From Candidatus Firestoneibacteriota bacterium (GTDB taxonomy: Bacteria > Oederibacteriota > D2-FULL-39-29 > CAIOVX01): DNA of 64,000 nucleotides. The position numbers and the translations under genes are program-made. Below the pieces are notes generated by a model. That model was not told the origin of the DNA. It saw only the letters and a list, made by a program, of their open reading frames with translations, and did not search any database. Below, piece after piece: positions 20,236 to 57,527 of this stretch. Position 1 is the first letter of the stretch. Each line of letters starts with the position of its first letter. The stretch lies in assembly GCA_903861835.1 (NCBI GenBank), contig CAIOVX010000091.1, forward strand, positions 47,610 to 111,609, given 5' to 3'.

Positions 20236-20236
20236 C

Positions 20237-34890: not shown

Positions 34891-35649
34891 TTACTTCTTT
34901 TCGAACTTTACTAGTTTAACGAAAGAATCGGCTTCCAGCGCAGCTCCGCCGACCAGCGCGCCGTCAATATCCGGCTCGTTCATAAGGATTGAAACATTGT
35001 CCGGCTTAACGCTGCCGCCGTACTGTATACGTACCGCGTCCGCTGTCTTCTGGCTATAGAGTTTCGAGATGAGATCCCTGATGAATTTATGGACTTCCTG
35101 CGCCTGCTCTTTACTCGCGGTCTTGCCCGTGCCGATTGCCCAGACAGGTTCGTACGCAATCACCATCTTAAGCATTTCGTCTTCGGTAAAGCCCTTGAGG
35201 CCGCCGGTAAGCTGTCTTTTTATGACTTCGTTGGTGACGTTCTTTTCTCTCTCTTCCAGTGTTTCTCCGCAACAGAGTATCGGAAGCATCTCTTCGGAGA
35301 GGACTGCCCTTATCTTCCTGTTTATCAGCTCATCAGATTCCTTAAAGATCTGCCTTCTCTCGGAATGGCCGAGGATGACATAAGTGCAGCCCGCTTCCTT
35401 CAGCATTGACGGAGAAACTTCACCCGTAAACGCGCCCTTCTTTTCAAAGTAGCAGTTCTGCGCGCCGACCTTAATGTTTGAACCCTTGAGAAACTGATAA
35501 ACAGAGTAGAGGGCGGTAAACGGAGGGCAAACAACAACCTCCACATCACTCACATCCGCAAGTTTAAAACGGAGGTCCTTTACCAACTCCAGCGACTCCG
35601 TGACGTTCTTGTTCATCTTCCAATTTCCTGCGATTATCGGCTTTCTCAT
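34891..35649 (-). CDS. tpiA: Triosephosphate isomerase
   Basis: IAGNWKMNK, ILGHSERR, and the AYEPVWAIGTGK active-site loop. Confidence 0.9.
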   Translation of the reverse strand: MRKPIIAGNWKMNKNVTESLELVKDLRFKLADVSDVEVVVCPPFTALYSVYQFLKGSNIKVGAQNCYFEKKGAFTGEVSPSMLKEAGCTYVILGHSERRQIFKESDELINRKIRAVLSEEMLPILCCGETLEEREKNVTNEVIKRQLTGGLKGFTEDEMLKMVIAYEPVWAIGTGKTASKEQAQEVHKFIRDLISKLYSQKTADAVRIQYGGSVKPDNVSILMNEPDIDGALVGGAALEADSFVKLVKFEKK

Positions 35650-36542
35650 TTAGTGTTTCTCCTTTCTACCATTTTTTTTATTTGAGCTATATGAACGGGG
35701 GTAGTCCCGCAGCATCCGCCTATAATATTCGCGCCTGCATCTATAAGTTCCTCAACCCGGGAAGCCATTATCTCAGGCGATCCGTCGTAAGTGACCACTC
35801 CGTCTTTCATGACCGGAAGCCCGGCGTTCGGTTCGGCAATAATTAACCTGTTCGTGTGTTTCTTTATCGCCCTAACAATTTCTATCATTGAATCAATACC
35901 GTAGCCGCAGTTTGCGCCGATAATATCGGCACCCGCGGCTTCCAGTTGTTTAGCCATAGTTTCTGTATCAACGCCCATAACGGTCCGAACATCGCCGTTA
36001 TTGATCTTAAAGGTCATAAGAGCCATAACCGGCAGCTTAGTTACACTCTTCGCCGCTTTCACGGCGAGCGCAGTCTCTTCTATCGCTATCATCGTCTCGA
36101 CGATAATAAAATCTGCGCCGGCTCCCGCGAGAATCTTTGCTTGCTCCGAAAAAGCCGCGAACGCCTTTTCAGCGGTCATAGTGCCGTACGGCTCTAGCAT
36201 CTCGCCGGTGGGGCCGATATCTCCGCCCACATAGACCGGACTGTTTCCCGCAGCCGTCTTCGCGTTTTTTACCCCGGCTTCGTTTATCTCCCTAAGCTTG
36301 CCGTCGAGGTTAAACTTCTCAAGTTTCAAGCGGTTCGCGCCGAACGTATTGCTGAGCACCATATCAGCGCCCGCTTCAATATATTTCTTATGTATGCCGG
36401 TGACGCTCTCCGGTTTTGTCAGATTCCAAAGCTCCGGGCATTCCCCTGCCGCTAAGCCTTCCGCCTGCAGCATGGTTCCCATAGCGCCGTCGCACAACAG
36501 TACCCTGCTCTTTATGGAATCCAGCAGGTCTTTGTTCTTCAT
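35646..36542 (-). CDS. Homocysteine S-methyltransferase-domain protein (MetH N-terminal Hcy-binding-domain type)
   Basis: LLCDGAMGTMLQ, and a C-terminal GGCCGTTP Zn-binding motif. 298 aa, standalone. Confidence 0.65.
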   Translation of the reverse strand: MKNKDLLDSIKSRVLLCDGAMGTMLQAEGLAAGECPELWNLTKPESVTGIHKKYIEAGADMVLSNTFGANRLKLEKFNLDGKLREINEAGVKNAKTAAGNSPVYVGGDIGPTGEMLEPYGTMTAEKAFAAFSEQAKILAGAGADFIIVETMIAIEETALAVKAAKSVTKLPVMALMTFKINNGDVRTVMGVDTETMAKQLEAAGADIIGANCGYGIDSMIEIVRAIKKHTNRLIIAEPNAGLPVMKDGVVTYDGSPEIMASRVEELIDAGANIIGGCCGTTPVHIAQIKKMVERRNTK

Positions 36543-37927
36543 TTTTTCTTCCTGAGTTCCTTAAGCAGTTCCGGAAGACACTGTTCAACCTGCTGCCACA
36601 TCTCCTGCTCGGAGATGCCGGTAGTCCGTCCGTTGACATACTGCTCGTCAACCCACGTCTTAATGAAAGTTACCGCGTGATGGTGCTTGTCAACTTTGCC
36701 GTCGCCAACAAGTTCCAGACGGCTGTTAAGCCAGTAGGCTATTCCCGCCACACCCGATTTATCTGTGATACCGACATCAACATGGCGCTTAAGTATTTTG
36801 TTCGTGTCAAAAATATTATAGATTTCTTCGTCTTTCATCATGCCGTCGGCGTGGATTCCTGCCTTAGTCACGTTGAAATTAGCCCCTACAAAAGGCTGGT
36901 TCTCGGGAATTTTGTATCCGATGTCCTTTTCAAAATATCTGGCGACATCCGTGATGACAGTCGTGTCCATACCGTTGTCAACTCCCCTTATACCGATATA
37001 CTCAAGCATCAACGCTTCCACCGGACTGTTGCCTGTGCGCTCGCCGATACCCATCAGAGACCCGTTCGCGGCGCAGCAGCCGTAGAACCAGGCCGTCGCG
37101 GCGTTTATCACGCCCTTGTAGAAATCATTGTGCCCGTGCCACTCAAGCCACTCGCTCGGAACACCGGCGTGCTTGTGCAGTCCGTAGCAGATGCCCTTCA
37201 CGCTTCTCGGCATTGAAGCGCCGGGATAAGTTACCCCGTAGCCGAGAGTGTCGCAAGCCCTTATCTTTACGGGAATCTTTGCCTCGCGGGCAAGTTTCAT
37301 CAGTTCCTGAGCAAAAGGAACAACAAAGCCGTAGAAATCGGCCCTTGTTATATCTTCAAAATGGCAGCGCGGAGAAATCCCGAATTCCAGCGCAGACTTC
37401 GCGATGGCAAGATAATCTTCCAGCGCCTGCTTGCGCGTTTTTTTCAATTTTAGGAAGATATGGTAATCCGAGACCGAGGTAAGAATACCCGTCTCTTTCA
37501 GCCCCATCTCTTTCACAAGTTTGAAGTCTTCCTTGACAGCGCGTATCCAGCCGGTAATTTCAGGATAGCGCAAACCGAGTTCACGGCACTTGTCAACAGC
37601 CTCGCGGTCCTTCTTCGTGTAAAGGAAGAACTCCGTCTGGCGTATCATTCCGTTCTTGCCTGAAAGCTGGCTTAACATCTTGTACAGGTCAACTATCTGC
37701 TTAACGCTGAAAGGCGGCAAGCTCTGCTGACCGTCCCGAAAGGTTGTATCTGTGATCCAGATATCTTCGGGCGGTTCCATTGGGACTATTCTGTGGTTAA
37801 AAGGAACCTTCGGCACGTCGCCATAGGAAAAGATATTTCTGTAGAGGTTTGGGGTCTCCACATCCTGCAGGTCGTACTTATAGTCGTCCTGCTCTAACGT
37901 CCGTTTTTCCTTATTATATCTAAGCAT
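36539..37927 (-). CDS. HMGL-like 2-isopropylmalate / homocitrate / Re-citrate synthase family protein (no LeuA regulatory domain)
   Basis: DRE-TIM barrel motifs ITDTTFRDGQQS, HGHNDF and GIGERTGNSPVEAL. The whole ORF is 462 aa with no C-terminal LeuA-dimer domain. Confidence 0.55.
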   Translation of the reverse strand: MLRYNKEKRTLEQDDYKYDLQDVETPNLYRNIFSYGDVPKVPFNHRIVPMEPPEDIWITDTTFRDGQQSLPPFSVKQIVDLYKMLSQLSGKNGMIRQTEFFLYTKKDREAVDKCRELGLRYPEITGWIRAVKEDFKLVKEMGLKETGILTSVSDYHIFLKLKKTRKQALEDYLAIAKSALEFGISPRCHFEDITRADFYGFVVPFAQELMKLAREAKIPVKIRACDTLGYGVTYPGASMPRSVKGICYGLHKHAGVPSEWLEWHGHNDFYKGVINAATAWFYGCCAANGSLMGIGERTGNSPVEALMLEYIGIRGVDNGMDTTVITDVARYFEKDIGYKIPENQPFVGANFNVTKAGIHADGMMKDEEIYNIFDTNKILKRHVDVGITDKSGVAGIAYWLNSRLELVGDGKVDKHHHAVTFIKTWVDEQYVNGRTTGISEQEMWQQVEQCLPELLKELRKKK

Positions 37928-38220
37928 ACGGCTCCTTGCGCTAGAATGGGTTTACCCTATAAAAGGGTTACCGATTTGCTATATTATCAAATTTAGGAGG
38001 GGTTTTAAAGCACTTTTTGAGTTGGAAAAGCGCATATACCAAATTCGCAACAATCTGCACCAAAGACAAGTTCTAAATGCTAAATTCTAAACAGAAGCAA
38101 CACGATTCCGCGGTTATTGCTATTTGCCTTATTGCTTTTTGTTTAAAATTTAGTGCTTAGAGCCGCTCCGCGGATTGCTAATTACTAATTAAAGACTCAA
38201 AGGTCTGAAGCGCATCGGTC

Positions 38221-38440
38221 ATCTGTCCTCCGTCTTCAGTCTTCTGTCTTCCGTCTTCTGTCTTCAGTCCTCCAGTCATTTAAGCCCTTAAGCATCTAAC
38301 CATCTAACCATCTAACCATCTAACCATCCAACCATCCAACCATCCAACCTTCCAAACATCCAACCTTCCAACCCTCTGACCTTCCGTCCTCAGTCCTCAG
38401 TCCTCTGTCTTCTGTCCTCCGCTATACTGCGCATCATTAC
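38221..38440. repeat. Composite tandem-repeat element, copy 1: a 7-mer array (tcYgtcY), then cccttaagcatc, then an 8-mer array (ccatcYaa / ccNtccaa), then a second 7-mer array
   Basis: Direct tandem 7-nt and 8-nt units are visible in the sequence. It is one of 3 copies in 6.4 kb and lies in the 5' region of the HMGL-like gene. Confidence 0.8.
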
Positions 38441-38492
38441 TGCCTTACTGAGCATCCGAGCCTCTGACCCGCTGAGCCTCACCTCTCCGCCG

Positions 38493-39590
38493 TTATCTTT
38501 TTCCTTTCGGGGTGAATACCGGCTCAGCAGTTCTGAAAATACACCCCGTGTCGGCTTTAATGTCAATCACCGTGCAATACATCCTGCCGTCGACGGGATT
38601 ATAGGCAAGCCAGCTGGCCCTGTATTGAGGGGGAATGCCGTCTGTAAAAGCGCTCCAGGTACTCCCGCCGTCAGTCGACCTGGCAAAAACAGGCGTCTTT
38701 AGCCAGTCAACGCCGTTACCCGCATACAAGTACCCGTTCGGATCCTTTCTTAAAGCGCCCAGACCTTTCGAAGAACAACCTGAATCGTAAACCAGCTGCC
38801 ATGTCGCGCCGCGGTCGTTGGTCCTGTAAACACCCTGTATCATCTGATAGAACACATCTCCCTTGTCGTTGAACGCGATGTGCATCGCATCTGCTATCTG
38901 CGACCTTAATCCGGTCTTGGTCGGCACATGCTTCCAGGATCGCCCATTGTCAGTTGAAATAAAAACACTATTGCCGTCCACTTCAGACCCCATCCAGCAA
39001 TCGCCGGTAACCGGATTATATCCAAAACAGAACTCTGCCTGCCCGTGACCGATGCCTTCTCCGGCAAGCGAGCAGGAAACTCCGTGATCCGAGGAATAAT
39101 ACGGCCCCTCTCCCCAGCAAACGCCGAACAAAATATCTCCGTTGGGGAGAAAACCGGCGCCGTCAATGGCAGTGCGCGGATGCCCCCCCTTGAAGCCTTC
39201 GATCTTATTCCAGTTCCTGCCGCCGTCAACGGAACGGTAATAATAGGATACATTCTTTTTGGGAACGGTGCAGTCTATCTGGGACGCAATCAGGTATCCC
39301 GTATTCGGGTCGGCCTGGATGGTTGAAGCATGCCATTTATTGCCGGGATTTACGGCAAGGCCTGAGCCGTTAATGGAGGTCCAGGTCTTTCCGAAATCTT
39401 TGGAAACAAAAAAACCTGCTTCGGAGGAACAGGTGTAGAGATTACCCGAGACGTCGCATTCAATGCATCTTGTTTTCTTAACGCCGCCGGGAGCAGTCAC
39501 AGGCTCCCAGATGGCCGCTTTCACGAATAAAGCCGTGAATACAAACAGCATTACAAGTATCGCTCTAGGAATCACCATAAGATTTTTCAT
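38493..39590 (-). CDS. Secreted BNR/Asp-box repeat protein (sialidase-like beta-propeller)
   Basis: Signal peptide and at least 5 Asp-box repeats of the SxDxGxTW form (SKDFGKTW, SVDGGRNW, STDNGRSW, TNDRGATW, STDGGSTW). Confidence 0.7.
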   Translation of the reverse strand: MKNLMVIPRAILVMLFVFTALFVKAAIWEPVTAPGGVKKTRCIECDVSGNLYTCSSEAGFFVSKDFGKTWTSINGSGLAVNPGNKWHASTIQADPNTGYLIASQIDCTVPKKNVSYYYRSVDGGRNWNKIEGFKGGHPRTAIDGAGFLPNGDILFGVCWGEGPYYSSDHGVSCSLAGEGIGHGQAEFCFGYNPVTGDCWMGSEVDGNSVFISTDNGRSWKHVPTKTGLRSQIADAMHIAFNDKGDVFYQMIQGVYRTNDRGATWQLVYDSGCSSKGLGALRKDPNGYLYAGNGVDWLKTPVFARSTDGGSTWSAFTDGIPPQYRASWLAYNPVDGRMYCTVIDIKADTGCIFRTAEPVFTPKGKR

Positions 39591-39600
39591 TCAGCTCCGG

Positions 39601-39785
39601 GATATAGTTAAGACCTTAAGCTTCTGCCCTTCTGTCTTCCGTCTTCAGTCTTCTTCCTCCATCCACGCAGGCCCTTAACCATCTAACCATCCAACCATCC
39701 AACCCTCCAACCCTCCAACCCTCTAACCTTCCAACCATCCAACCCTCCAACCCTCCAACCCTCCAACCCTCTAACCTTCCAACCC
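39601..39785. repeat. Composite tandem-repeat element, copy 2: a 7-mer array, the core catccacgcaggcccttaaccatc, and an 8-mer array (ccaaccct / ccaaccat, about 14 units)
   Basis: It fills the whole spacer between the heparinase-like stop at 39786 and the BNR gene start at 39590. Confidence 0.8.
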
Positions 39786-41789
39786 TCATTTCTCAAACCT
39801 TCCCGCCACCACCTCATTCTTCATGTCACTCTTAACGCCGTTCACGAGGATATACCCGCCGGTATCTCCTTCAAAGAGCACCTCGTTGCCGTCAATACTC
39901 ACGCCTATGCCCTTGCCTTTCTGTATAAGCACCGGTTTTTTCTCTCCTGCGGTCGACAGCACATTCAGGAATACATCCTCGGCCTTTCCGACGCCGGGCT
40001 TTATCTCCACCCTCCACAAGTCTGCCTCGGGAGTCAGCTTGCTTTCCTTTTCCGGATAATTCTTGCCGCCGTAAGTGTACCCTTCCACCTTGTTTATAAC
40101 CGACTTTTCAGGCAGCAGCGCGTAGCAGTTCAGCGTTCCTTCTCCGTTCTTTACCGCGAATTCAGCGTTCTTTATTTCCGGCTCATTCTTGCAATGCAGC
40201 AGCCAGGTTTTCGCGTAATCCTTGTTCAGCGCCTCAACCCTGTCATAGATCACGAAGATTCCGGGGCGCAAAAACACTATCCGGCGTATATACTTGCTTA
40301 CTTTCCTGGAACTGTAGGCCTTTGTGCAGTCTCCCGTGAGATACATAAAGCCCGGGGTGTTTTCATAAGCGGTTATCTTGCCGCGGGAGAAAGTTTCCTT
40401 TTTGGCTTCCCATTCAGGCAGCGTCCCGACCACAGTCTCCCATTTCTTGGCCTGGCCGCCGTCATTCTCAAGTTCCTTCACGCCGCGGTAATTCTTCCAT
40501 TCCTCTCCCGGCATTAATACGAGCATGCAGTTGTGAGCGACAGTGCGCGTCAGCCAGTTTACCGCGTGAGGAGAACTCCAGGCGATATATTCCCCGCTCT
40601 CGGTCGCCAGCTGTTCTTTGCAGAAAATCTCAAAGTTCCCGGCCTCAAAATGCTGGTGCTGGTTCCAGTAGTCGGAACATTCAAACCTGAACCAGGTTGC
40701 GTCATCACCCCAACCGTCCCTTGCGTAGACCTTCCCGATGTCCTTCGTAATGTGAGCCAGAGGGAAGTCAGACAGGCCTTTGGGGGCGTCAGCAGGCCCT
40801 CCGTACAGAAAATCAAAAGCCCTCGACATCAGGTTAGAACCCGCGCGGTTCTTGCCCGCCGTGTATTTTGAAAGTTCCGAGCCCCCGAAGTATCTCGCGA
40901 TAACATTTCTCATATGGCGCGGGTATTCCCTGGCGCCGCTGTAGATATTTGCCCCGTCGCCTTCCATAGGGTAATTCTCGGCGCCGTAATCGGCGAATCC
41001 CGGATACGGCTGGAGCAGTTCGAAGGCAAGACGCTGATAAAAGAATTTTTGGCATTTCTTGAACCCGTCATAACCCTCTGCCATCCGCGCGAGTTCAAGC
41101 GCCTGTGTCAGGTGCCAGACAGAATGCCTCTGGTACCAGCCGCACTCCGTCCAGCCCCCTCCCGCCCCGTATTTATTGAGGACGGGAATGAGCTTGCTCT
41201 CGTAAAGCTCTAAAATGGCTTTGTCCCTGAAAGTTTTTGCTTTCGGGTTGTCATTCCAGGTCGCGTAGGCAATCCTAAGATAGGTAAGCATTTTTGACAT
41301 CGTAGAATTGTGAAACGCATTCTCGTCGTCGCGGTAGGAATCGTAGGTGGCATTCATCCAGTCAATTATTTTTTTGCGGTTTGAGTCTCCCAGCTCGTTA
41401 TAAAAAAAGTCAAAGACAAAAGCCGCGTTCGTAAGTTCTATCCAGGTATCCTGATGTTTATTGGAAGGACCTTTGTTTACAAGGTTCATCGTTTCGGCAA
41501 TAGTTTTATCTATTTTAGACTTGTCCAACCCCTCTACTGCCTGAGTGATACAGCGGAATTCAAGCGCGCTCGCGTTCCGGATCTCGCCGTAAACCCGCGG
41601 GTTCTCTTTAGCGAGAGCTTTAAGACGCTCTTTTGAGCCATAAAGGATTGGGTGCTTCCCGAGATCCTTAGACCACGCACCTGTCTCCACAACCGGATTT
41701 CCGGCCGGAATTTCCTGGGCAAAGAGCGGTCCGCTGAGAATACAGGCAAACGCGAGAAATTTTAGGACACTCTTAGATTTAAAGAGCAT
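39786..41789 (-). CDS. Heparinase II/III-like polysaccharide lyase family protein
   Basis: Signal peptide. It has an alpha/alpha-toroid N-terminal domain (WYQRHSVWHL...) and a beta-sandwich C-terminus containing the NQHQHFEAGNFEIF motif. 667 aa. Confidence 0.6.
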   Translation of the reverse strand: MLFKSKSVLKFLAFACILSGPLFAQEIPAGNPVVETGAWSKDLGKHPILYGSKERLKALAKENPRVYGEIRNASALEFRCITQAVEGLDKSKIDKTIAETMNLVNKGPSNKHQDTWIELTNAAFVFDFFYNELGDSNRKKIIDWMNATYDSYRDDENAFHNSTMSKMLTYLRIAYATWNDNPKAKTFRDKAILELYESKLIPVLNKYGAGGGWTECGWYQRHSVWHLTQALELARMAEGYDGFKKCQKFFYQRLAFELLQPYPGFADYGAENYPMEGDGANIYSGAREYPRHMRNVIARYFGGSELSKYTAGKNRAGSNLMSRAFDFLYGGPADAPKGLSDFPLAHITKDIGKVYARDGWGDDATWFRFECSDYWNQHQHFEAGNFEIFCKEQLATESGEYIAWSSPHAVNWLTRTVAHNCMLVLMPGEEWKNYRGVKELENDGGQAKKWETVVGTLPEWEAKKETFSRGKITAYENTPGFMYLTGDCTKAYSSRKVSKYIRRIVFLRPGIFVIYDRVEALNKDYAKTWLLHCKNEPEIKNAEFAVKNGEGTLNCYALLPEKSVINKVEGYTYGGKNYPEKESKLTPEADLWRVEIKPGVGKAEDVFLNVLSTAGEKKPVLIQKGKGIGVSIDGNEVLFEGDTGGYILVNGVKSDMKNEVVAGRFEK

Positions 41790-41987
41790 TGAGCCTCCTG
41801 TTTACTATTTACTGTCAAATCTGAACGGCACCGCAGACAGGCCTTCCGAACGGCAAAAAGGTTCCTCCGGTAATCCGCTGGTCACTGCGCCCGCAGTTGT
41901 ACTTTAGGCCTTGTTGCTTGATACAACAATGATACTGGAATGGTCAGCGTCTGCAGCAAAAATAATTTCGGTGTGCAAGCGAAGTCC

Positions 41988-43733
41988 CTACTTTTCCGCT
42001 GCCTCGAGTTCTATTATCTTATTGGCGACTTCCATCTTAAACACTTCCAGTTTCTCAAACGAGATAACCTCCTGCTTTAAAGCCGCGAGCGTGGTCCTGG
42101 TATCGGGTATAAGCGCGCCAAAGGACTCGAGCAGTTTTTTTGCAGCTCCTGCTTTTCCGGCGAGTTCAGGATTGGACTTCGCTTTTTCTATGAGTTGTTC
42201 AAGCGTCACAACATACCGCCGGTCATCAATCCCCTTTCTCATTGCTTCATAATTCACGGACGGCATAATGTCCTCGGTGTCATTTTCGCAAGGCCCGGTC
42301 AGGCACCAGTCAGGATCTCCTCCGTCAAGGTCATTCAAGGGGTCTCCGCTGTATGAATTGAAAGACCACATTTTCAAAGAAGAATAATTATTTTTCCAGG
42401 GAAAGAGCCCCGGCTCAAGCCTTGCGTGCAGAATACTTCCGCTGTCTATCCAGACATTGAGGCTGAGTCTTTTTCCATTGCCCAAGAGAAAAGCCTTGTC
42501 CAATTCCGGCCACAACGCGTAACTCCAGTTCACATCGGTATGTTGCGCGTAAAGCTTGTAAACATCCGGCCCGTTAAGAGTTTCCACGACTGTAACTCCC
42601 TCAATGGTCTTTAGCCACTTGATGAGCGGAGTCAGCTCCCGGCGCCGTTCTTCGCTGTTGCCGGGTTCATCGATTCCAAAATAAAATATTTCCACTTTTT
42701 CGCCGTACTTATCCTTAACCTGCTTGTTAAAGCGCTCTATCATCTTGCGCCCTTCGGAAACAAAGACAGGAGAATGCAATTTTGTTTTCAGCGCCGCGGC
42801 TATCGCATGCGAGAGCGGCTGCGCGTAGATCAAAAAGCTGCCATTCAGCCCTTTACTTAAAGCCAACTCGGCATCTTCTTCAAACCCCTTAAAATCTATT
42901 CCCTCCGCGGACACCTGCAGGTTCCTTAAACCTATATCGTAGCCGTAGACCCCGTGCTCTTTAAGGCTTTTTACGAAATTATCGTTCCTGATATTCGGAT
43001 CATCAAAAAACCACATATTGAATTTCTTCGGGGAAACGAGTTTTATCGGAAGGACTTCTATTTCTACCGGCACGCTTGCCGCCGCGCTGTTCGCCGGAGC
43101 AAACTCTATCGTGCCCTTGTAAAGGCCGGGCTTGGCGTCTTCAGGAATCTTTACGGTTATCCACCACTGGCGCGTCGGGCCGGCCTTTACCGCGCCCCAG
43201 AGTATTTTCTCCCCGGCAGGAATATCCATAGTATCCTTCTTCTCCATAAGCCAGGGGTTCAAACGGAAGATATGCGGACCGGTCCTTTTCGGCATATGCC
43301 AGACAGTCCGAGCTTCAAAGTTCTCAGGACCTATATTGTCCTTCCCGGAAGAAAGGCCGGAAGAGGAAACCTTTGCCGCTTTAAGATCTTTCAAAGGATA
43401 AACCGAGAATGTGAGGGGGATATACTCTCCCGGGCTGCCGAAAGACGCGCATTTCAGCCCGCTCTTTTCGGTAGGCACAGAGTTATGAAATATTTGTGCG
43501 GAATAATCATTGGAGAACAGGATGTAACCCCTTTCCTTCTCCCCGGCGGTTGCCGCTCTTATAGTGTCGTTCGCCTCGCGCACATCTTCTACAAATTTAC
43601 CGGTCTTGAGTATTATCTTTGTGGTTGTGTCCCGATCTTTTCTCTTCTTGTCTATCACTTCCTGTGACACGGCAGCGGAATAAGAAAGGCAGGCGAATGA
43701 CAGCAGAAGCGCGCAGATCAATACTCTTTTCAT
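41988..43733 (-). CDS. Secreted glycoside-hydrolase-like protein, paralog B (possibly GH123/DUF4091-like; contains the adjacent Asp-Glu motif IDEP)
   Basis: Signal peptide. It shares the blocks GLYKGTIEF...VEIEVLPIKL, FGIDEPGNS and GIDDRRYVVTL with the ORFs at 18550 and 46254. Confidence 0.4.
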   Translation of the reverse strand: MKRVLICALLLSFACLSYSAAVSQEVIDKKRKDRDTTTKIILKTGKFVEDVREANDTIRAATAGEKERGYILFSNDYSAQIFHNSVPTEKSGLKCASFGSPGEYIPLTFSVYPLKDLKAAKVSSSGLSSGKDNIGPENFEARTVWHMPKRTGPHIFRLNPWLMEKKDTMDIPAGEKILWGAVKAGPTRQWWITVKIPEDAKPGLYKGTIEFAPANSAAASVPVEIEVLPIKLVSPKKFNMWFFDDPNIRNDNFVKSLKEHGVYGYDIGLRNLQVSAEGIDFKGFEEDAELALSKGLNGSFLIYAQPLSHAIAAALKTKLHSPVFVSEGRKMIERFNKQVKDKYGEKVEIFYFGIDEPGNSEERRRELTPLIKWLKTIEGVTVVETLNGPDVYKLYAQHTDVNWSYALWPELDKAFLLGNGKRLSLNVWIDSGSILHARLEPGLFPWKNNYSSLKMWSFNSYSGDPLNDLDGGDPDWCLTGPCENDTEDIMPSVNYEAMRKGIDDRRYVVTLEQLIEKAKSNPELAGKAGAAKKLLESFGALIPDTRTTLAALKQEVISFEKLEVFKMEVANKIIELEAAEK

Positions 43734-44317
43734 TTCAGCTCCTTTTTGAAAAGAGACACTTTCAGTTTATCGGCATCTACAAGAACAGTTTCCTCGGAGA
43801 ATAGTTTGGCTTCAATTATGCGGGAAGCTCTTATCCAGCACGCTTCCTGAAATGAATCCCCGGACATTACCATCTTACCTTCATATTCCTCGTCTTCCGC
43901 GTATTTCTTAAGCTCCCCGACCCAGAGCGGATTAGGGGCGCCGCCGTCAAGGCTGGCGTAGATTCCGAAGATGGTATTGCCGTCGGATGATATGCCTGCC
44001 GAAATATAATACATAATTTTGTCCTGCGGCCCGAGGCTGTATTGTTTTAGCTCCTTATCCGCCGTATTCAACAGAAAAAGCCGCCCTCTTTTTATGAACA
44101 AAATCTTTGAAAATGCGGCGTCAGCGGTTACGCTCTTGATAAAATCTTCTTCCGCGCCGTCATATAGGGCCGTGGTCTTCCCTGTTGCATTATCCTTCAG
44201 TTCTATTTTGGACCCGCTCGCAATAAGCGTCTTACTGCCGCCGGAGTTCTCCTTCGCCGCTGCAGGCAGCGCCAAAACAGCAGAAAACGCGACAAACAGG
44301 AAAAAACATTTTATCAT
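43730..44317 (-). CDS. Secreted hypothetical protein, co-operonic with paralog B
   Basis: Signal peptide from MIKCFFLFVAF. The start is the ATG at 44317, which has a GGGAG RBS. There is a 4-nt overlap with the downstream gene. No recognisable domain. Confidence 0.4.
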   Translation of the reverse strand: MIKCFFLFVAFSAVLALPAAAKENSGGSKTLIASGSKIELKDNATGKTTALYDGAEEDFIKSVTADAAFSKILFIKRGRLFLLNTADKELKQYSLGPQDKIMYYISAGISSDGNTIFGIYASLDGGAPNPLWVGELKKYAEDEEYEGKMVMSGDSFQEACWIRASRIIEAKLFSEETVLVDADKLKVSLFKKELK

Positions 44318-44395
44318 CCTTATTCTCCCGGCGGGACTGCCCCGCTTAATGAATTTCTTTACGCACAAAAGTATCTTTCTTTAATACTTCCGGAA

Positions 44396-44620
44396 ACACA
44401 CCTTCTGTCCTCCACCTTACTGCGCATCCGCGCATCACTTCTGACTTCTGACTTCAGTCTTCCGTCCTTTGTCTTCCGTATTCAGGCCTCTTCATCCATC
44501 CACGCAGGCTCTTAATCATCCAAACATCCAACCTTCCAACCAGCCGCCATTCTGTCTTCTTGCCTCATCCCTTGCCGGCCCTTAAACATCCAACCCTCCA
44601 ACCCTCTGAACCTCCAAATC
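44396..44620. repeat. Composite tandem-repeat element, copy 3: cttactgcgcatc, a 7-mer array, the core catccatccacgcaggctcttaatcatc, and an 8-mer array
   Basis: It shares the core and both arrays with copies 1 and 2. It lies in the 5' region of the operon at 43730-44317 and 41988. Confidence 0.75.
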
Positions 44621-44996
44621 ATTGTTTCAGCAAATCCCCCATTTCCTTTTGCATTTGCGCGTTGAATTCACCGGCGATACCCACCATAAACTTGATGGAG
44701 ATTATGAGCAGAACAATTCCTATCCAAAACGAGATCCAGACCCAGAGTTTCGCTTTCTTTGAACTGACTTTAGCCTTTTCATGCAAACCAGCATTGAAGA
44801 ATGCATTTACCTTCAGGCCATATATAAAGGAAACAATCCCGGTTGGAATCAGAGAAAGTATCATGAGTACGGAGAGCCAGATGTAGGTTTTGGGTTTTAC
44901 AGGTTTTACGGTAAGATTCAGGAGGTCGCTTCCGCAGTACCGGCACTTGATGGCTTCATCCTGGATCTCTTCAGCGCAATACGGGCACTTCTTCAT
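44619..44996 (-). CDS. Zinc-ribbon membrane protein, hypothetical
   Basis: N-terminal CPYCx12CRYC zinc ribbon, then two TM helices. Confidence 0.4.
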
Positions 44997-45127
44997 TTGG
45001 GCTCCAGAGTTGAAACGGGTCTCCTATTATTGTACCACAATTTCCTCTGGCCGGAAAACTGCGGCAAACATTTATCCTGCAACACATATAGGCGCCCGCG
45101 CGTTTCAGCAAAAGAATCCTCTTCCGT

Positions 45128-46189: not shown

Positions 46190-46253
46190 ATGGCCTTCTC
46201 CCGGGGACGGTATCGCCTCCCGCGTGTATTATTCAAACCTTTATGGATTTATG

Positions 46254-48035: not shown

Positions 48036-48096
48036 AACGCCTCCGAAACAAAAAGAAAGTAATTTTTCGCCTGTGCCGCTTCCGGGACCCGCCGCA

Positions 48097-51803: not shown

Positions 51804-51820
51804 TATTCCTCCGGGAAACT

Positions 51821-52420: not shown

Positions 52421-52527
52421 TATGACTCCTTTTGAAATGTGTTAATTCATTCTATCAAACCCGAGGGGTTTTTCAAGTGGAAATACCCTGTTATCTTCGT
52501 TATAATGGGACTTCCTCAGGAGGAAAA

Positions 52528-53616
52528 ATGGCATATAACATAACATTGATAAAAGGCGACGGAATAGGGCCGGAACTCGCGCAGGCGGCAAAGATGTGCG
52601 TGGAAGCGACCGGCGTAAAGGTAGTCTGGGATGAGGTTGAAGCAGGAATAGATGTGATGGCAAAAGAGGGCACTCCCCTCCCGGAAAGAACCATAGAATC
52701 CGTCCGTAAAAACAAGCTGGCGCTCAAGGCGCCTGTTACCACGCCGGTCGGCACGGGATTTCGAAGCGTGAATGTGGCGCTCAGGCAGGTGCTCGGCCTT
52801 TACGCTTGCGTGCGCCCCTGTAAATCCTACGAGGGCGTTCGTTCCAAGTACAGGAATATTGACCTCGTTATAGTGCGCGAGAATACCGAGGACCTTTACG
52901 CCGGAATTGAATTCAAACAGGGCGAAGAAAAGACGAAGAAACTGATTGACGAGATTTCGGCTCTCGGCGGCAAGAAGATACTGCCGGATTCCGGCATCAG
53001 CATCAAACCTATTTCAATCCAGGGCACCGAAAAAATAGTTACTTACGCTTTTGAATACGCGCGCAAGCATAAAAGGAAGAAGGTCAGCGCCGTTCACAAA
53101 GCTAATATCATGAAGTTTACCGACGGGCTCTTTCTGGAAGTTGCCCGCAATGTTGCGAAGAAATACACTGATATAGAGTTTAATGATGTCATCGTCGACA
53201 ATATGTGCATGCAGCTGGTGCAAAAACCGGAACTCTATGATGTTCTTGTCCTTCCCAACCTCTACGGCGATATTATTTCAGATCTTTGCGCGGGGCTTGT
53301 AGGCGGTCTTGGCGTGGCGCCGGGAGCGAATATCGGAGCTGATTCGGCTGTCTTTGAAGCAACCCACGGCAGCGCTCCAAAATACAAGGGCTTAAACAAG
53401 GTAAATCCTACCGCGCTCATACTCTCTTCCGTGCTTATGCTTGAACATATGGGAGAACTTGAAGCGGCGCGCAAGCTGGAAGCCGCGGTCGCAGCCGTAA
53501 TAAAAGAAGGCAAGCGCGTGACCTATGATATGAAACCGGACAGGAACGATCCGACGGCGGTTGGGACCAGGGAGATGGCTGAGGAAATAGCGATAAAGGC
53601 AAATTCTAAATTCTAA
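52528..53616 (+). CDS. icd: Isocitrate dehydrogenase (NAD-dependent type, isocitrate/isopropylmalate dehydrogenase family)
   Basis: [30 protein letters not shown], and the NLYGDIISD metal-binding motif. The start is refined to the ATG at 52528, which has a GGAGGAAAA RBS. Confidence 0.75.
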
Positions 53617-53639: not shown

Positions 53640-54569
53640 ATGAAGAGGGCTAAGGTAGCTGTTATAGGCGCAGGGCAGGTAGGCGGCATAGTAGCGTTTC
53701 AGATTGCTCAGAAAGAGCTCGCCGATGTGGTATTGGTTGACATCGTAGAAGGAATGCCTCAGGGAAAAGCCCTGGATATGAGCCAGACAGCGGGAGTTGA
53801 GCATTTTGACGCAAAGGTAACCGGCACGAACAATTATGCCGATATAAAAGAGAGCGACATCGTAGTCATCACAGCCGGTGTTGCCAGGAAACCCGGAATG
53901 ACTCGCGAAGACCTCCTTAAGATCAACACGGATATAGTAAAAAAAGCCGCTGAGTCGGTAAAACTCTACGCTCCGGAAGCTTTTATAATATCTGTAACTA
54001 ACCCGCTGGATATTATGACCCAGCTGGTCTATAAAACTACCGGCTTCAAGAAGAATAAAGTGCTTGGAATGGCCGGAGTTCTTGATTCCGCGCGATTTGC
54101 ATTATTTATTGCCGAGGAACTCAAGGTTTCAATAAAAGACGTCTTTCCGATGCTGCTCGGCAGCCACGGAGACACGATGGTTCCTCTCCCCCGCTATACT
54201 ACGGTCTCCGGTATCCCACTTACCGAACTTCTTCCCGCTGAAAAGATAGCGAAGCTTTCGGAAAGGGCAAGGAACGGCGGTGCTGAAATCGTGGGGCTGC
54301 TTAAGACCGGAAGCGCGTATTTTGCCCCTGGCAGCTCGGCAGTCGCGATGGTTGAAAGCATTCTTAAGGACCAAAAGCGCATCCTCCCATCCTGTGTATA
54401 CCTTGAAGGTGAGTACGGAATAAAGGGCGTCTTCATCGGGGTACCGGTAAAGATTGGCAAGAACGGCGTTGAGCAAATTATTGAACTTAAACTGAATGCC
54501 GAAGAACTCGCGCTGCTGAAAAAGTCGGCGGCAGCGGTGGCAAAGGGAGTTGCGGAGCTGGGAATATAA
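53640..54569 (+). CDS. mdh: Malate dehydrogenase (LDH-like)
   Basis: KVAVIGAGQVGG, ITAGVARKPGMTR, the catalytic His region and SAYFAPGSSA. Confidence 0.9.
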   Translation: MKRAKVAVIGAGQVGGIVAFQIAQKELADVVLVDIVEGMPQGKALDMSQTAGVEHFDAKVTGTNNYADIKESDIVVITAGVARKPGMTREDLLKINTDIVKKAAESVKLYAPEAFIISVTNPLDIMTQLVYKTTGFKKNKVLGMAGVLDSARFALFIAEELKVSIKDVFPMLLGSHGDTMVPLPRYTTVSGIPLTELLPAEKIAKLSERARNGGAEIVGLLKTGSAYFAPGSSAVAMVESILKDQKRILPSCVYLEGEYGIKGVFIGVPVKIGKNGVEQIIELKLNAEELALLKKSAAAVAKGVAELGI

Positions 54570-54690: not shown

Positions 54691-55533
54691 ATGATCACAT
54701 CCAAACAAATATCGTCTGCGGTAAGCGGCCTCTGCATTGATGCCAATCTGAAACTGCGGCCTGATGTCGTCAAAGCTCTCAAGGATTCCCTGAGGAAAGA
54801 AACCTCTTTGAAAAGCAGGAATCTCCTTTCAATCCTCCTCGAGAACTGCGCCATCGCAAAAAGCGAAAAAATACCACTCTGCCAGGATACGGGAATGACC
54901 GTGGTTTTCGCTGAGGTCGGGCAGGACGCAAGGATACAGGGAGATCTAACGACGGCGATAAATAAAGGAGTCGCGACCGGCTATAAAGAAGGTTTCCTTC
55001 GAAAATCAATAGTGGCGGACCCTCTCCTCAGGAAAAACACCGGCACAAATACCCCTGCGATGATCTATTATGACATCGTCCCGGGCAAGAAACTAAAACT
55101 TACAGTGCTCCCTAAGGGCTTTGGCTCTGAAAATAAGTCAAAACTTTATATGCTCAACCCGACGGCGGGATATGACGCTGTCGTGAACTCAATACTCAAG
55201 GCGATCAAGGAAGCAGGGCCTGACGCCTGCCCTCCCTATGTGGTTGGTGTCGGAATAGGCGGAGACGCGGCGAAGGCCTGTTACCTCGCGAAGAAAGCGC
55301 TGACTAAACCTGTAACTTTCCTTTCGGATAAAGCTCATTTCAGGAAGCTGGCGAAAGAATTGCTCGCGAAAGGAAACAAACTGAATATCGGCCCGCTCGG
55401 GGCCGGAGGCAAGACTACTCTCCTCGGCGTAAATATACTTTCTATGGCCACACATATCGCTGGCTTACCGGTGGCGGTGAATATAAGCTGTCATTCTTTG
55501 CGCTCCGCGCATAAAAACTTGCAAAGTTCGTAA
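54691..55533 (+). CDS. fumA: Fe-S hydro-lyase alpha subunit (class I fumarate hydratase / tartrate dehydratase alpha)
   Basis: CQDTGM motif, 280 aa. It is followed by the beta subunit. Confidence 0.85.
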   Translation: MITSKQISSAVSGLCIDANLKLRPDVVKALKDSLRKETSLKSRNLLSILLENCAIAKSEKIPLCQDTGMTVVFAEVGQDARIQGDLTTAINKGVATGYKEGFLRKSIVADPLLRKNTGTNTPAMIYYDIVPGKKLKLTVLPKGFGSENKSKLYMLNPTAGYDAVVNSILKAIKEAGPDACPPYVVGVGIGGDAAKACYLAKKALTKPVTFLSDKAHFRKLAKELLAKGNKLNIGPLGAGGKTTLLGVNILSMATHIAGLPVAVNISCHSLRSAHKNLQSS

Positions 55534-55556
55534 CGTTCTTAACGTTTGTAACGTAA
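55529..55556 (+). promoter_or_regulatory. Intercistronic TAACGTT repeat array (3 units with 9-nt period) between fumA and fumB; the first unit contains the fumA stop codon
   Basis: cgTAACGTTctTAACGTTtgTAACGTaaacc, 18 nt upstream of the fumB ATG. Same unit and same orientation as the array at 31937-31983. Confidence 0.45.
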
Positions 55557-55573
55557 ACCATGAACAAACACTT

Positions 55574-56092
55574 ATGAAAACCATACAATTGCCCATAGAT
55601 GAGAAGACCATCAAAACCCTTAAAGCGGGGGAGATGGCCCTACTGTCAGGCAAGCTTATAACGGGAAGAGACCAGGCGCATCTTAGATTTGCCGGGGCGA
55701 TAAAAAAGGGCAAGAAACTCCCCGTGAACATAAAAGGACAAACCATTTATTATGTCGGACCGACGCCGGCGAAAGCAGGCGAAGTTATCGGCTCCTGCGG
55801 ACCGACTACCAGCAGAAGAATGGATGCCTTCTCTCCTCTCCTTATAAAAAAAGGTCTGACTACTATGATAGGCAAGGGCGGCAGGAGCAAGGAGACAATT
55901 GCGGCAATAAAGAAACATAAAGGCATCTACTTTATGACCCTCGGCGGCGCGGGAGCATATCTCTCGAAACGCGTAATATCGGCAAAAGTCATCGCCTACC
56001 CGGAACTCGGGCCCGAAGCGGTATTTGAACTTGAGGTGCGGGACTTTCCGGTCATTACCGCAATAGACAGTAAAGGTAAAAACATTTTTTAA
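55574..56092 (+). CDS. fumB: Fe-S hydro-lyase beta subunit (class I fumarate hydratase beta)
   Basis: 172 aa swivel beta/beta/alpha domain (LSGKLITGRDQAHL...YYVGPTP). Confidence 0.85.
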   Translation: MKTIQLPIDEKTIKTLKAGEMALLSGKLITGRDQAHLRFAGAIKKGKKLPVNIKGQTIYYVGPTPAKAGEVIGSCGPTTSRRMDAFSPLLIKKGLTTMIGKGGRSKETIAAIKKHKGIYFMTLGGAGAYLSKRVISAKVIAYPELGPEAVFELEVRDFPVITAIDSKGKNIF

Positions 56093-56114: not shown

Positions 56115-57527
56115 ATGAAGATTCCCTGGAACCGCGTCAAGATAGTGGCAACAGCCGGACCCGCGAGCAACAACTATGAAATTCTGAAAGCAATGATTTG
56201 CTCGGGCCTTGACATAGTCCGCATTAACTTCTCACACGGCAAGCACGCCGAGTACAGAAAGACCATTTCGCTCGTCAGGAAAATAGAAACAGAACTCGGG
56301 CGCCCTATCGGGATTCTCGCGGATATGCCGGGCCCCAAACTCAGGGTCAGAGGCCTTCCGGGCGGCATTCCTATAGAAGCGGCAACAGGCAGCCTGGTTA
56401 AGATTTCAAGCGGAAAGATATCTCTGCCAAATGAGCTAAACATCTCACATCCGGTCCTGCTGAAAGCGCTGAGACCGGGCGCCATGATCTTTATTTCAGA
56501 CGGCAAGATACGGATTAAGGTTCTGAAAGCGGATAGGCGCTCCGCGCTTTGCAAAGTGGTCGCCGGCGGGCAGATAAAACTTGGCGCGGGCCTGAATTTT
56601 CCTGACATCGACCTTCCCATTCCCTCGGTTACATCAGAGGACTACAAGAATATTAAGTTCTGCGCGGCGCTTGGCGTTGATTTTATAGGCCTTTCTTTCG
56701 TAAAGAACGCGAGCGATGTAAAAAGAGTAAAATCCTTCATAAAAAACTTCGCGCACAAACCTTTCCTTATCTCAAAGATCGAACGGCGTTTTGCCATTGA
56801 TAATCTTAAGGAGATAATTGAAGCGACCGACGGAGTAATGGTGGCCAGAGGAGACCTTGGCGTGGAGATGCCGATTGAGCGCATTTCAATCATGCAAAAG
56901 GATATTATCCGCAAATGCAACGCCGCGGGTAAACCGGTTATCACCGCCACACAAATGCTTGAATCAATGATAGAAAACCCCTCACCGACCAGAGCCGAGG
57001 TTTCCGATGTCGCAAACGCTATTTTTGACGGAACTGACGCGATAATGCTCTCCGGTGAAACGGCCATTGGTAAATACCCGGTAGAATCCGTGCTAATGAT
57101 GGAAAAGATTGCCGCTCAGGTAGAGAGGAAGTACGAATTTGATGTTCATACACGCGAGGCTGACAAAAGGGATATTACCGACATTATCAGCCAGAGCGTG
57201 GCTGACATCGCCATGGATTATTCCGTCACCGCAATTGTCATTCCGACTCTCTCCGGCAAGACCGCGAGGGTAGTTTCCAGACACCGCCCCTCCGCAATGA
57301 TTATCGCGCTTGCGGCCGGGAGAGAGGTTCAAAGACAACTCACGATATCGTGGGGCGTATATCCCGTGCTTTCGGCAAGACAGCACCCGTCTATTGTTAT
57401 GGATACAGCTTCAAAGTTCATAAAATCCTCGAAACTCTTTAAGAAAGGCGACAGAGTGATAATAGCGGCGGGGACGATAGATAAGGGAGGGGATCTCAGT
57501 AATATTATAAAAATAGCACAGGTCTAA
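56115..57527 (+). CDS. pyk: Pyruvate kinase
   Basis: KIVATAGPAS, MVARGDLGVEMP, and the K+/Mg2+ site motifs. 470 aa. Confidence 0.9.
   Translation: MKIPWNRVKIVATAGPASNNYEILKAMICSGLDIVRINFSHGKHAEYRKTISLVRKIETELGRPIGILADMPGPKLRVRGLPGGIPIEAATGSLVKISSGKISLPNELNISHPVLLKALRPGAMIFISDGKIRIKVLKADRRSALCKVVAGGQIKLGAGLNFPDIDLPIPSVTSEDYKNIKFCAALGVDFIGLSFVKNASDVKRVKSFIKNFAHKPFLISKIERRFAIDNLKEIIEATDGVMVARGDLGVEMPIERISIMQKDIIRKCNAAGKPVITATQMLESMIENPSPTRAEVSDVANAIFDGTDAIMLSGETAIGKYPVESVLMMEKIAAQVERKYEFDVHTREADKRDITDIISQSVADIAMDYSVTAIVIPTLSGKTARVVSRHRPSAMIIALAAGREVQRQLTISWGVYPVLSARQHPSIVMDTASKFIKSSKLFKKGDRVIIAAGTIDKGGDLSNIIKIAQV

What the first reader, a model, noticed from the sequence alone, without database searches (positions are those of the whole stretch)
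36539..37927. A LeuA-type synthase lacking the regulatory domain next to a complete icd-mdh-fumAB-pyk set: candidate Re-citrate synthase
The ORF has the HMGL-like DRE-TIM barrel with LeuA-family signatures (ITDTTFRDGQQS, HGHND, GIGERTGNSPVEAL). These features argue against carboxyltransferase (OadA/PycB)-type enzymes. It is 462 aa at most, or 413 aa from the internal Met, and it lacks the C-terminal LeuA regulatory/dimer domain. That size fits homocitrate synthase or the Re-face citrate synthase of strict anaerobes. The window encodes isocitrate dehydrogenase, malate dehydrogenase, two-subunit class I fumarase and pyruvate kinase, but no Si-citrate synthase (gltA). A Re-citrate synthase would therefore complete the oxidative TCA branch.
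Basis: partly seen in the sequence, partly recalled or inferred. Interest (0 to 1): 0.55.

Follow-up and report, generated by a model that had tools for sequence, protein, structure and literature searches.

The report
Ordinary Re-citrate synthase, mislabelled family

Summary
The ORF at 36539-37927 (-), 462 aa, is real and carries the quoted motifs. It has one Pfam domain (HMGL-like) and no LeuA regulatory domain. It falls far below every curated LeuA, NifV and CimA cutoff. BLASTP gives 59% full-length identity to the Syntrophus aciditrophicus Re-citrate synthase SYN_02536 and 54% to Clostridium kluyveri CKL_0973. Both are listed as known, isolated Re-CS in PMC12016533. Identity to LeuA, NifV, CimA and the second Re-CS lineage is only 24-28%. 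A bootstrapped NJ tree places the target inside the 100%-supported CKL_0973/SYN_02536 clade, and it shares all that clade's signature residues. Among 80 genomic homologs, 40 have an aconitase gene and 28 an Iso_dh-family (isocitrate dehydrogenase-type) gene within 6 kb. The window's icd-mdh-fumAB-pyk operon is real but lies 14.5 kb away on the other strand. In two Firestonebacteria-like relatives it sits head-to-head with this gene, so a 14.6-kb glycan-gene block separates them here. No aconitase and no gltA lie in the window. The family is known (KEGG K05942), widespread, and routinely mislabelled "2-isopropylmalate synthase". Interest is low.

The parts
36539..37927 (-). Re-citrate synthase gene (CKL_0973/SYN_02536 type, EC 2.3.3.3), 462 aa. 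N-terminal family-specific extension (residues 1-55), DRE-TIM/HMGL-like barrel (about 57-330), C-terminal helical region (about 331-462). No LeuA regulatory domain.
   Evidence: ORF, motifs, domain. (59%, 54% and 62% identity to SYN_02536, CKL_0973 and Clo1313_RS03665). (tree). (invariant and clade-specific residues). (fold).
37932..37937 (-). Shine-Dalgarno-like AAGGAG, 4 nt upstream of the ATG at 37927
   Evidence: Read directly from the sequence. It supports the 462-aa start.
52432..53616 (+). Isocitrate dehydrogenase-like gene (Iso_dh family). A pathway partner and the first gene of the icd-mdh-fumA-fumB-pyk string.
   Evidence: Pfam Iso_dh, 349 bits; the best NCBIfam models are ICDH (402 bits), but the score is below their cutoffs. 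In relatives it lies directly head-to-head with the Re-CS gene.
53640..54569 (+). Malate dehydrogenase. It interconverts malate and oxaloacetate, the Re-CS substrate (reductive-branch partner).
   Evidence: TIGR01763, 455 bits against a cutoff of 352.
54691..56092 (+). Two-subunit class I (Fe-S) fumarate hydratase, alpha (54691-55533) and beta (55574-56092)
   Evidence: NF004885 scores 343 against a cutoff of 276. The beta subunit matches NF005310 with 224 bits against 238, just below the cutoff.
56115..57527 (+). Pyruvate kinase, the last gene of the same string
   Evidence: PK and PK_C domains.

Best explanation
The gene encodes a Re-face-specific citrate synthase (citrate (Re)-synthase, EC 2.3.3.3, KEGG K05942) of the Clostridium kluyveri / Syntrophus aciditrophicus type. 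It is a member of the LeuA/homocitrate-synthase (DRE-TIM metallolyase) superfamily and is unrelated to GltA. Inferred mechanism, by homology with LeuA, CimA and HCS structures: a divalent metal held by D65, H264 and H266 binds the 2-oxo and C1-carboxylate groups of oxaloacetate, with R64 and T227. Acetyl-CoA is enolised, with E191 and H359 of the GIHxDG motif as the candidate acid/base residues. The enolate attacks the carbonyl from the re face, and the citryl-CoA thioester is hydrolysed to citrate plus CoA. Physiologically it feeds acetyl-CoA and oxaloacetate into the oxidative branch (aconitase, then the icd product) to make 2-oxoglutarate and glutamate. The mdh and fumAB products serve the reductive branch. 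This is the split TCA cycle typical of strict anaerobes. Shown here: family membership, conserved catalytic residues and genomic association. Inferred only: substrate, stereochemistry, metal and oxygen sensitivity.
For:: full-length BLASTP identity is 59% to SYN_02536 (q1-455, E=0), 54% to CKL_0973, 62% to C. thermocellum Clo1313_RS03665 and 53% to CAC0970. Identity is 24-28% to H. modesticaldum LeuA, NifV and CimA and to the type-2 Re-CS. The reference sequences come from Table S1 of PMC12016533, which describes the C. kluyveri and S. aciditrophicus enzymes as known, isolated Re-CS. One search is a clean-sequence cross-check: Syntrophales loci 75% identical to SYN_02536, and an Acetivibrio locus 87% identical to Clo1313_RS03665, are 61-63% identical to the target. 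NJ tree with 100 bootstraps; the target lies in a 100%-supported long-stem clade with all four clade-1 references; the target shares every clade-1-specific residue (F63, Q67, F101, Y103, L149, Y155, R187, H189, T298, T354) and the superfamily catalytic set; it falls below all LeuA, NifV and CimA cutoffs (best 133 bits against 463); within 6 kb of the homolog there is an aconitase-family gene in 40 of 80 genomes (39 on the same strand, downstream; one checked passes the curated aconitate hydratase model with 966 bits against 612), Iso_dh in 28 of 80, and a GntR/FCD regulator in 34 of 80; in two Firestonebacteria-like relatives the gene is head-to-head with icd-mdh-fumAB-pyk; it lies beside glutamate synthase genes in an Armatimonadota genome. 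and PMC8027424: it lies beside succinate-CoA ligase in Brocadiaceae. The Kuenenia ortholog is 55% identical to CKL_0973, and in that paper flux data supported an oxidative TCA branch and the authors assigned it to this gene by inference. JGI names three homologs of 67-70% identity 'citrate (Re)-synthase'.
Against: There is no biochemical or labelling evidence for this protein or for any Firestonebacteria-like organism. Aconitase is not in the window, so the pathway cannot be closed from the window alone. The window's icd-like gene scores below the curated ICDH cutoffs (402 against 510). The immediate operon mates (homocysteine S-methyltransferase, tpiA, secG) are not TCA genes. The reference sequences were machine-read from a PDF and contain dropped or changed letters, so the identity values are approximate lower bounds. 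The tree is a simple NJ tree with few outgroups.
Confidence: 0.9

Rival explanations
1. It is a homocitrate synthase (NifV-, Lys- or AksA-like) that condenses acetyl-CoA with 2-oxoglutarate.
For: The best NCBIfam hit by score is nifV_homocitr (133 bits). The best PDB sequence and fold match is Sulfolobus homocitrate synthase 6ktq. The size and the lack of a LeuA regulatory domain also fit HCS.
Against: The 133 bits fall far short of the 463-bit cutoff. Identity is only 27% to H. modesticaldum NifV and 23% to 6ktq, against 54-62% to clade-1 Re-CS. The target lies outside the NifV branch in the tree. No nif, lysine-AAA or coenzyme-B genes are nearby. Pocket positions differ from NifV.
Confidence: 0.03
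2. It is a truncated 2-isopropylmalate synthase or citramalate synthase (LeuA or CimA) acting in branched-chain amino-acid synthesis. This is the name NCBI gives to most homologs.
For: NCBI names for many homologs are '2-isopropylmalate synthase'. The LeuA subfamily model scores 132 bits.
Against: The scores are 132 against 517 bits for LeuA and 84 against 950 bits for CimA. There is no LeuA_dimer domain. Identity is 27% to LeuA and 24% to CimA. No leuBCD or ilv genes are adjacent. The aconitase-family neighbour checked in one homolog locus (L036) is a true aconitate hydratase and not LeuC/D. The literature documents this exact mis-annotation (PMC12016533, PMC8027424).
Confidence: 0.02
3. It is a genuine clade-1 member, but in this lineage it has a shifted role or specificity. 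It might be promiscuous towards another 2-oxoacid, or work with the co-transcribed homocysteine S-methyltransferase and not in the TCA branch.
For: It is translationally coupled (4-bp overlaps) to a stand-alone homocysteine S-methyltransferase gene and to tpiA. That arrangement is conserved in the Firestonebacteria-like relatives. In this window the gene is detached from the icd operon.
Against: All clade-specific pocket residues are identical to those of the characterised enzymes. The HcyMT neighbour occurs in only 1 of 80 genomes sampled. In the relatives the icd operon is still the divergent neighbour. No known pathway links the two enzymes.
Confidence: 0.05

Closest known systems
Syntrophus aciditrophicus Re-citrate synthase SYN_02536 (Kim et al. 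2013, cited in PMC12016533)
   Same: 59% identity over target residues 1-455. Same N-terminal extension, same catalytic and clade-specific residues, same clade.
   Different: SYN_02536 is 622 aa, with a C-terminal extension of about 170 aa that is conserved in Syntrophales MAGs. The target lacks it.
Clostridium kluyveri Re-citrate synthase CKL_0973 (Li et al. 2007; founding member)
   Same: 54% identity over residues 18-461. Similar length (444 aa as transcribed, against 462). Same domain plan and signature residues. O2-sensitivity is reported for the enzyme (PMC6115520).
   Different: The clostridial homologs usually lie in a reCS-(gntR)-aconitase-icd cluster. The target is followed instead by HcyMT-tpiA-secG, and its icd partner is in a separate, divergently oriented operon.
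Type-2 Re-citrate synthases (Dehalococcoides CAI83711, H. modesticaldum HM1_2993, C. difficile AksA, Teth514_0415)
   Same: Same superfamily, same reported reaction and same physiological role (PMC12016533).
   Different: Only 27-28% identity. They branch with NifV and LeuA (D. mccartyi CAI83711 branches separately, outside the clade-1 clade) and not with the target. They lack the N-terminal extension and the clade-1 signature residues.
LeuA / CimA / NifV-HCS (DRE-TIM Claisen-condensing enzymes with solved structures: 6ktq, 3ble, 3rmj, 1sr9)
   Same: Same TIM-barrel fold and the same metal and catalytic residues: R64, D65, E191, T227, H264 and H266 align with LiCMS R16, D17, E146, T179, H207 and H209.
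   Different: At most 26% identity and below all curated cutoffs. No regulatory domain. RDGQQ replaces RDGEQ, EFFLY replaces E-x-G, and NVT-x-AGIH replaces (F/A)HESGIH.
Si-citrate synthase GltA (Pfam Citrate_synt)
   Same: Same overall reaction (acetyl-CoA + oxaloacetate to citrate).
   Different: Unrelated fold and sequence, opposite facial stereochemistry, and not O2-sensitive (PMC6115520). No such gene is in the window.

Membership tests
Re-citrate synthase, clade 1 (CKL_0973/SYN_02536 type; KEGG K05942; EC 2.3.3.3) | High full-length sequence identity to characterised members | tested here: met
   59% to SYN_02536, 54% to CKL_0973 and 62% to Clo1313_RS03665, with the alignment covering residues 1-455. 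Cross-checked with clean genomic sequences.
Re-citrate synthase, clade 1 (CKL_0973/SYN_02536 type; KEGG K05942; EC 2.3.3.3) | Phylogenetic placement inside the clade bracketed by characterised enzymes and apart from LeuA, NifV and CimA | tested here: met
   NJ tree with 100 bootstraps. The clade has 100% support and a long stem (0.23). CKL_0973/CAC0970 are basal and SYN_02536 is nested.
Re-citrate synthase, clade 1 (CKL_0973/SYN_02536 type; KEGG K05942; EC 2.3.3.3) | Architecture: N-terminal extension of about 55 aa, HMGL-like barrel and short C-terminal helical region, with no LeuA_dimer domain | tested here: met
Re-citrate synthase, clade 1 (CKL_0973/SYN_02536 type; KEGG K05942; EC 2.3.3.3) | Clade-specific signature residues (F63, Q67, F101, Y103, Y155, R187, H189, T298, T354) plus the superfamily catalytic set | tested here: met
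   All are invariant in 31 family members.
Re-citrate synthase, clade 1 (CKL_0973/SYN_02536 type; KEGG K05942; EC 2.3.3.3) | Genomic association with aconitase and isocitrate dehydrogenase | tested here: met
   Family level: aconitase in 40 of 80 loci and Iso_dh in 28 of 80 within 6 kb. This gene: the icd operon is 14.5 kb away in the window but directly adjacent in two relatives. Aconitase is not in the window.
Re-citrate synthase, clade 1 (CKL_0973/SYN_02536 type; KEGG K05942; EC 2.3.3.3) | Re-face stereospecificity, O2 sensitivity and dependence on a divalent metal | not testable with these tools
   Needs an anoxic enzyme assay and stereochemical analysis of labelled citrate.
2-isopropylmalate synthase (LeuA) | Score above the curated NCBIfam cutoff, C-terminal LeuA_dimer regulatory domain, and leuBCD context | tested here: not met
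   Best score 132 bits against a cutoff of 517. No LeuA_dimer domain. No leu genes nearby.
Homocitrate synthase (NifV / Lys / AksA) | Score above the curated cutoff, and nif, lysine or coenzyme-B context | tested here: not met
   133 bits against 463 (TIGR02660) and 102 against 414 (TIGR02146). No such context in the window.
Citramalate synthase (CimA) | Score above the curated cutoff | tested here: not met
   84 bits against 950 (NF042433) and 50 against 450 (TIGR00977). 24% identity to H. modesticaldum CimA.
Re-citrate synthase, clade 2 (Dehalococcoides / Heliomicrobium / C. difficile type) | Clusters with HM1_2993, Teth514_0415, AksA and CAI83711 | tested here: not met
   27-28% identity. 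Separate branches in the tree.
Si-citrate synthase (GltA) | Pfam Citrate_synt domain | tested here: not met
   The only Pfam domain found is HMGL-like.

The most novel reading that the evidence does not exclude
In this uncultured Firestonebacteria-like lineage the Re-citrate synthase could be the only citrate synthase. Its tight translational coupling to a stand-alone homocysteine S-methyltransferase and to tpiA-secG could reflect a functional link between central-carbon and methionine/C1 metabolism, or a shifted substrate range, and not mere synteny. Separately, no member of this clade has a solved structure. The clade-specific pocket residues (Q67, F101, Y103, Y155, R187, H189, T354) are therefore untested candidates for oxaloacetate selection and re-face attack.
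Probability: 0.05. Interest if true: 0.3.

Novelty: already known. Interest (0 to 1): 0.13.

Why it matters
The main value is as an annotation correction. NCBIfam has no model that captures this clade, so most NCBI records call it '2-isopropylmalate synthase'. Genomes that lack gltA then look as if they cannot make citrate. Recognising the gene closes the oxidative TCA branch to 2-oxoglutarate and glutamate in metabolic reconstructions of uncultured anaerobes, here a Firestonebacteria-like glycan degrader. No paper in the searched library mentions citrate synthase for that group. It adds nothing new to enzymology.

Tried and rejected
1. The two primary biochemical papers (Li et al. 2007; Kim et al. 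2013) are not held. Reference sequences were taken instead from Table S1 of PMC12016533. These are machine-read and have a few lost letters. For example, RDGQQ appears as RDQG or RDGGQ, so motif comparisons at positions 66-68 in the references are unreliable.
2. An Rfam scan of the whole window found no RNA family, so there is no known riboswitch or leader upstream of the gene.
3. The sigma-70 promoter and terminator scan of 34.3-38.6 kb found nothing on the gene's strand upstream and fewer sites than in shuffles. This is uninformative for this phylum.
4. A functional link to the downstream homocysteine S-methyltransferase was considered and rejected. The pairing occurs in 1 of 80 genomes, all in the same lineage.
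The absence of gltA rests on the Pfam scans of all ORFs.
6. Whether the rest of the genome has gltA, aconitase, leuA or nifV could not be tested. Only the window, out of a 192-kb contig, is available.
7. The AlphaFold model is of medium quality (pLDDT 72.8; residues 342-381 are below 50). It was used only for fold assignment and not for pocket geometry.
Full report
OBSERVATION. The ORF is real. It runs 36539..37927 on the minus strand, starts with ATG and encodes 462 aa. The three quoted motifs are present exactly as written. The alternative start is M50, which would give 413 aa, but the long form is correct for three reasons. Residues 1-55 align with the C. thermocellum and S. aciditrophicus proteins. 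Nine positions in that stretch are invariant across 31 family members. An AAGGAG lies 4 nt upstream of the ATG at 37927. Pfam finds one domain, HMGL-like (residues 57-330), and no LeuA_dimer regulatory domain.

The claimed TCA genes exist, all on the + strand: an icd-like gene at 52432-53616, mdh at 53640-54569, fumA at 54691-55533, fumB at 55574-56092 and pyk at 56115-57527. I scanned every non-shadow ORF of at least 140 aa against Pfam or NCBIfam. None is a Si-citrate synthase. Two corrections apply to the finding's title. The TCA string is not 'next to' the gene: it starts 14.5 kb away, on the other strand, with about 11 unrelated genes between. The set is also not complete, because the window holds no aconitase.

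WHAT IT IS. Against NCBIfam the protein matches LeuA, NifV, CimA and HCS models only weakly. The best score is 133 bits against a cutoff of 463 for NifV, and 132 against 517 for LeuA. No curated model captures it.

The protein database search returned 8,000 scored homologs, which is the search's candidate cap. The top 120 are 65-78% identical (plus one identical database entry) and 449-471 aa long. They come from Firestonebacteria, Omnitrophota, Elusimicrobia, Armatimonadota, Brocadiaceae and Thermodesulfobacteriota. NCBI names them '2-isopropylmalate synthase', while JGI names three of them 'citrate (Re)-synthase'. A scan of species-representative genomes found at least 598 genomes with a homolog.

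The direct test used the sequences printed in Table S1 of PMC12016533. BLASTP gave the following identities:
- 62% to C. thermocellum Clo1313_RS03665
- 59% to S. aciditrophicus SYN_02536 (target residues 1-455)
- 54% to C. kluyveri CKL_0973
- 53% to CAC0970
- 27-28% to the second Re-CS lineage (HM1_2993, Teth514_0415, C. difficile AksA, Dehalococcoides CAI83711)
- 24-27% to H. modesticaldum NifV, LeuA and CimA

PMC12016533 describes the C. kluyveri and S. aciditrophicus enzymes as known, isolated Re-CS. The table is machine-read, so these values are lower bounds. Clean genomic sequences agree with them. Syntrophales loci that are 75% identical to SYN_02536, and an Acetivibrio locus 87% identical to Clo1313_RS03665, are 61-63% identical to the target.

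An NJ tree with 100 bootstraps puts the target, sister to a Firestonebacteria protein, inside a 100%-supported, long-stemmed clade. That clade contains CKL_0973, CAC0970, Clo1313_RS03665 and SYN_02536. LeuA, NifV, CimA and the type-2 Re-CS lie outside it.

A column-by-column comparison shows two things. The superfamily catalytic set is present: R64, D65, E191, D192, D226, T227, H264, H266, GxGERxGN, and H359 in GIHxDG. Every clade-1-specific residue is also shared with the characterised enzymes: F63, Q67, F101, Y103, L149, Y155, R187, H189, T298 and T354. All are invariant in the 31-sequence alignment.

An AlphaFold2 model (pLDDT 72.8) shows the TIM barrel. Its best PDB matches are the catalytic domains of homocitrate synthase 6ktq, MAM synthase 6e1j, IPMS and citramalate synthase, at no more than 26% identity. 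No structure of this clade is in the PDB copy.

CONTEXT. In the window the gene heads a co-directional string: reCS, then a stand-alone homocysteine S-methyltransferase gene (35646-36542), then tpiA (34891-35649), then secG. The first two junctions overlap by 4 bp.

In a 76%-identical relative (P0005) the Iso_dh-Ldh-Fumerase-Fumerase_C-PK string lies immediately upstream and divergent, about 385 bp away. The same holds in a Firestonebacteria MAG (L005, 75% identity). Translated-DNA comparison shows that L005 positions 1-9677 are collinear with window 63657 to 52524. L005 positions 9998-13050 are collinear with window 37930 to 34894. Window 37.93-52.43 kb therefore corresponds to only about 320 bp in L005. 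It is a 14.6-kb block of glycan-utilisation genes that differs between the two genomes by insertion or deletion.

Across the 80 fetched genomes I clustered the neighbours without prior assumptions. Within 6 kb there is an aconitase-family gene in 40 genomes, 39 of them on the same strand and downstream. One that I checked passes the curated aconitate hydratase model (966 bits against 612), so it is not LeuC. There is a GntR/FCD regulator in 34 genomes, Iso_dh in 28 and a succinate-CoA-ligase beta subunit in 5. An Armatimonadota homolog sits beside glutamate synthase genes. A Brocadiaceae homolog is followed by a succinate-CoA-ligase-type gene. That is the same arrangement reported for Kuenenia KSMBR1_RS10820, which is 55% identical to CKL_0973. 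In that study, flux data supported an oxidative TCA branch and the authors assigned it to this gene by inference (PMC8027424).

HOW IT MOST LIKELY WORKS. The mechanism is inferred from the family. The enzyme is a metal-dependent Claisen condensation catalyst. D65, H264 and H266 hold the divalent metal. R64 and T227 help bind the 2-oxoacid. Acetyl-CoA is enolised and attacks oxaloacetate from the re face, and citryl-CoA is hydrolysed. These residues align with LiCMS R16, D17, E146, T179, H207 and H209 in the alignment. The roles assigned to the LiCMS residues come from my own recollection of the structural literature.

The clade-specific polar or aromatic residues (R187, H189, Y155, Q67) sit where CimA and LeuA have other residues. 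They are candidates for binding the C4-carboxylate of oxaloacetate, but this is speculation. Physiologically the enzyme would feed the oxidative branch to 2-oxoglutarate, while mdh and fumAB serve the reductive branch. The window also encodes rubrerythrin, a class I Fe-S fumarase and radical-SAM proteins. That content is consistent with an anaerobe in which an O2-sensitive Re-CS (PMC6115520) can function.

COMPARISON AND NOVELTY. The gene meets every sequence-level criterion for the clade-1 Re-citrate synthase family. It fails those for LeuA, NifV, CimA, the type-2 Re-CS and GltA (see the membership table). Stereochemistry, metal dependence and O2 sensitivity cannot be tested here.

The family was described in 2007 and has its own KEGG orthology, K05942 (PMC11964587). 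Its mis-annotation as IPMS or HCS is documented (PMC12016533). A gltA elsewhere would not refute the assignment, since C. thermocellum and C. kluyveri have both enzymes (PMC6115520).

The organism is probably Firestonebacteria-related. This is inferred from 75-82% protein identity and synteny with MAG L005, and the taxon label is that of the NCBI record. No paper in the searched library mentions citrate synthase for that group.

VERDICT. It is an ordinary ortholog of a known enzyme. Its only value is a correct annotation and a closed TCA branch for an uncultured lineage. Interest is low (0.13).

Noticed in passing
window 38218-38419 (intergenic region 37928-38492, upstream of the Re-CS gene): There are several short tandem arrays. 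An 8-bp unit (CATCCAAC) repeats about 10 times at 38293-38373. Seven-bp units occur at 38232-38269 and 38386-38419, and a 21-bp period spans 38218-38273. There is no Rfam match. Function unknown; possibly slippage-prone spacer DNA.
   Followed up: partly
window 35646-36542 (-): A stand-alone 298-aa homocysteine S-methyltransferase-domain protein, resembling the N-terminal half of YitJ or MetH. Its gene overlaps the Re-CS stop codon and the tpiA start codon by 4 bp each. The arrangement is conserved only in Firestonebacteria-like relatives (1 of 80 genomes sampled).
   Followed up: partly
window ~37930-52430 and 57629-59155: A 14.6-kb block is absent from the syntenic Firestonebacteria MAG L005. 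It holds a BNR/sortilin-like gene, a heparinase II/III-like gene, two GH123_N-like genes, a URO-D-like gene, GH4, an AraC regulator, MarC and hypotheticals. A sialate O-acetylesterase (SASA) gene is absent from L005 too. Both look like glycan-foraging gene gains, or losses in the relative.
   Followed up: partly
window 52432-53616 (+): The icd-like gene scores best with isocitrate dehydrogenase models but below all curated cutoffs (402 bits against 510). Homoisocitrate and isopropylmalate dehydrogenase models are not far behind. Its assignment as ICDH rests mainly on operon context.
   Followed up: partly
loci L019, L035, L047 (Syntrophales) versus the window gene: Syntrophales Re-citrate synthases, including SYN_02536, carry a conserved extra C-terminal region of about 170 aa (622 aa in total). 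The target and most other lineages lack it. The function of this region is unknown to me.
   Followed up: no
80 genome loci (L005-L084), directly downstream of the Re-CS homolog: A GntR/FCD-family regulator of about 220 aa lies between the Re-CS and aconitase genes in 34 of 80 genomes, mostly Clostridia. It is a likely dedicated regulator of the citrate-to-2-oxoglutarate operon. It is absent from the window.
   Followed up: partly
window 3510-9312 (-): A type IV pilus assembly cluster: secretin PilQ, PilO, PilN, PilM and a prepilin peptidase. It is flanked by chorismate synthase and shikimate kinase genes on one side and a MacB/HlyD/OEP efflux system on the other.
   Followed up: no
window 18550-20406 and 20237-21937 (-): Two long ORFs, one GH123_N-like (618 aa, TTG start) and one ABC_tran_2 (566 aa), overlap by about 170 bp as listed. 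The TTG start of the downstream ORF is probably called too far upstream.
   Followed up: no
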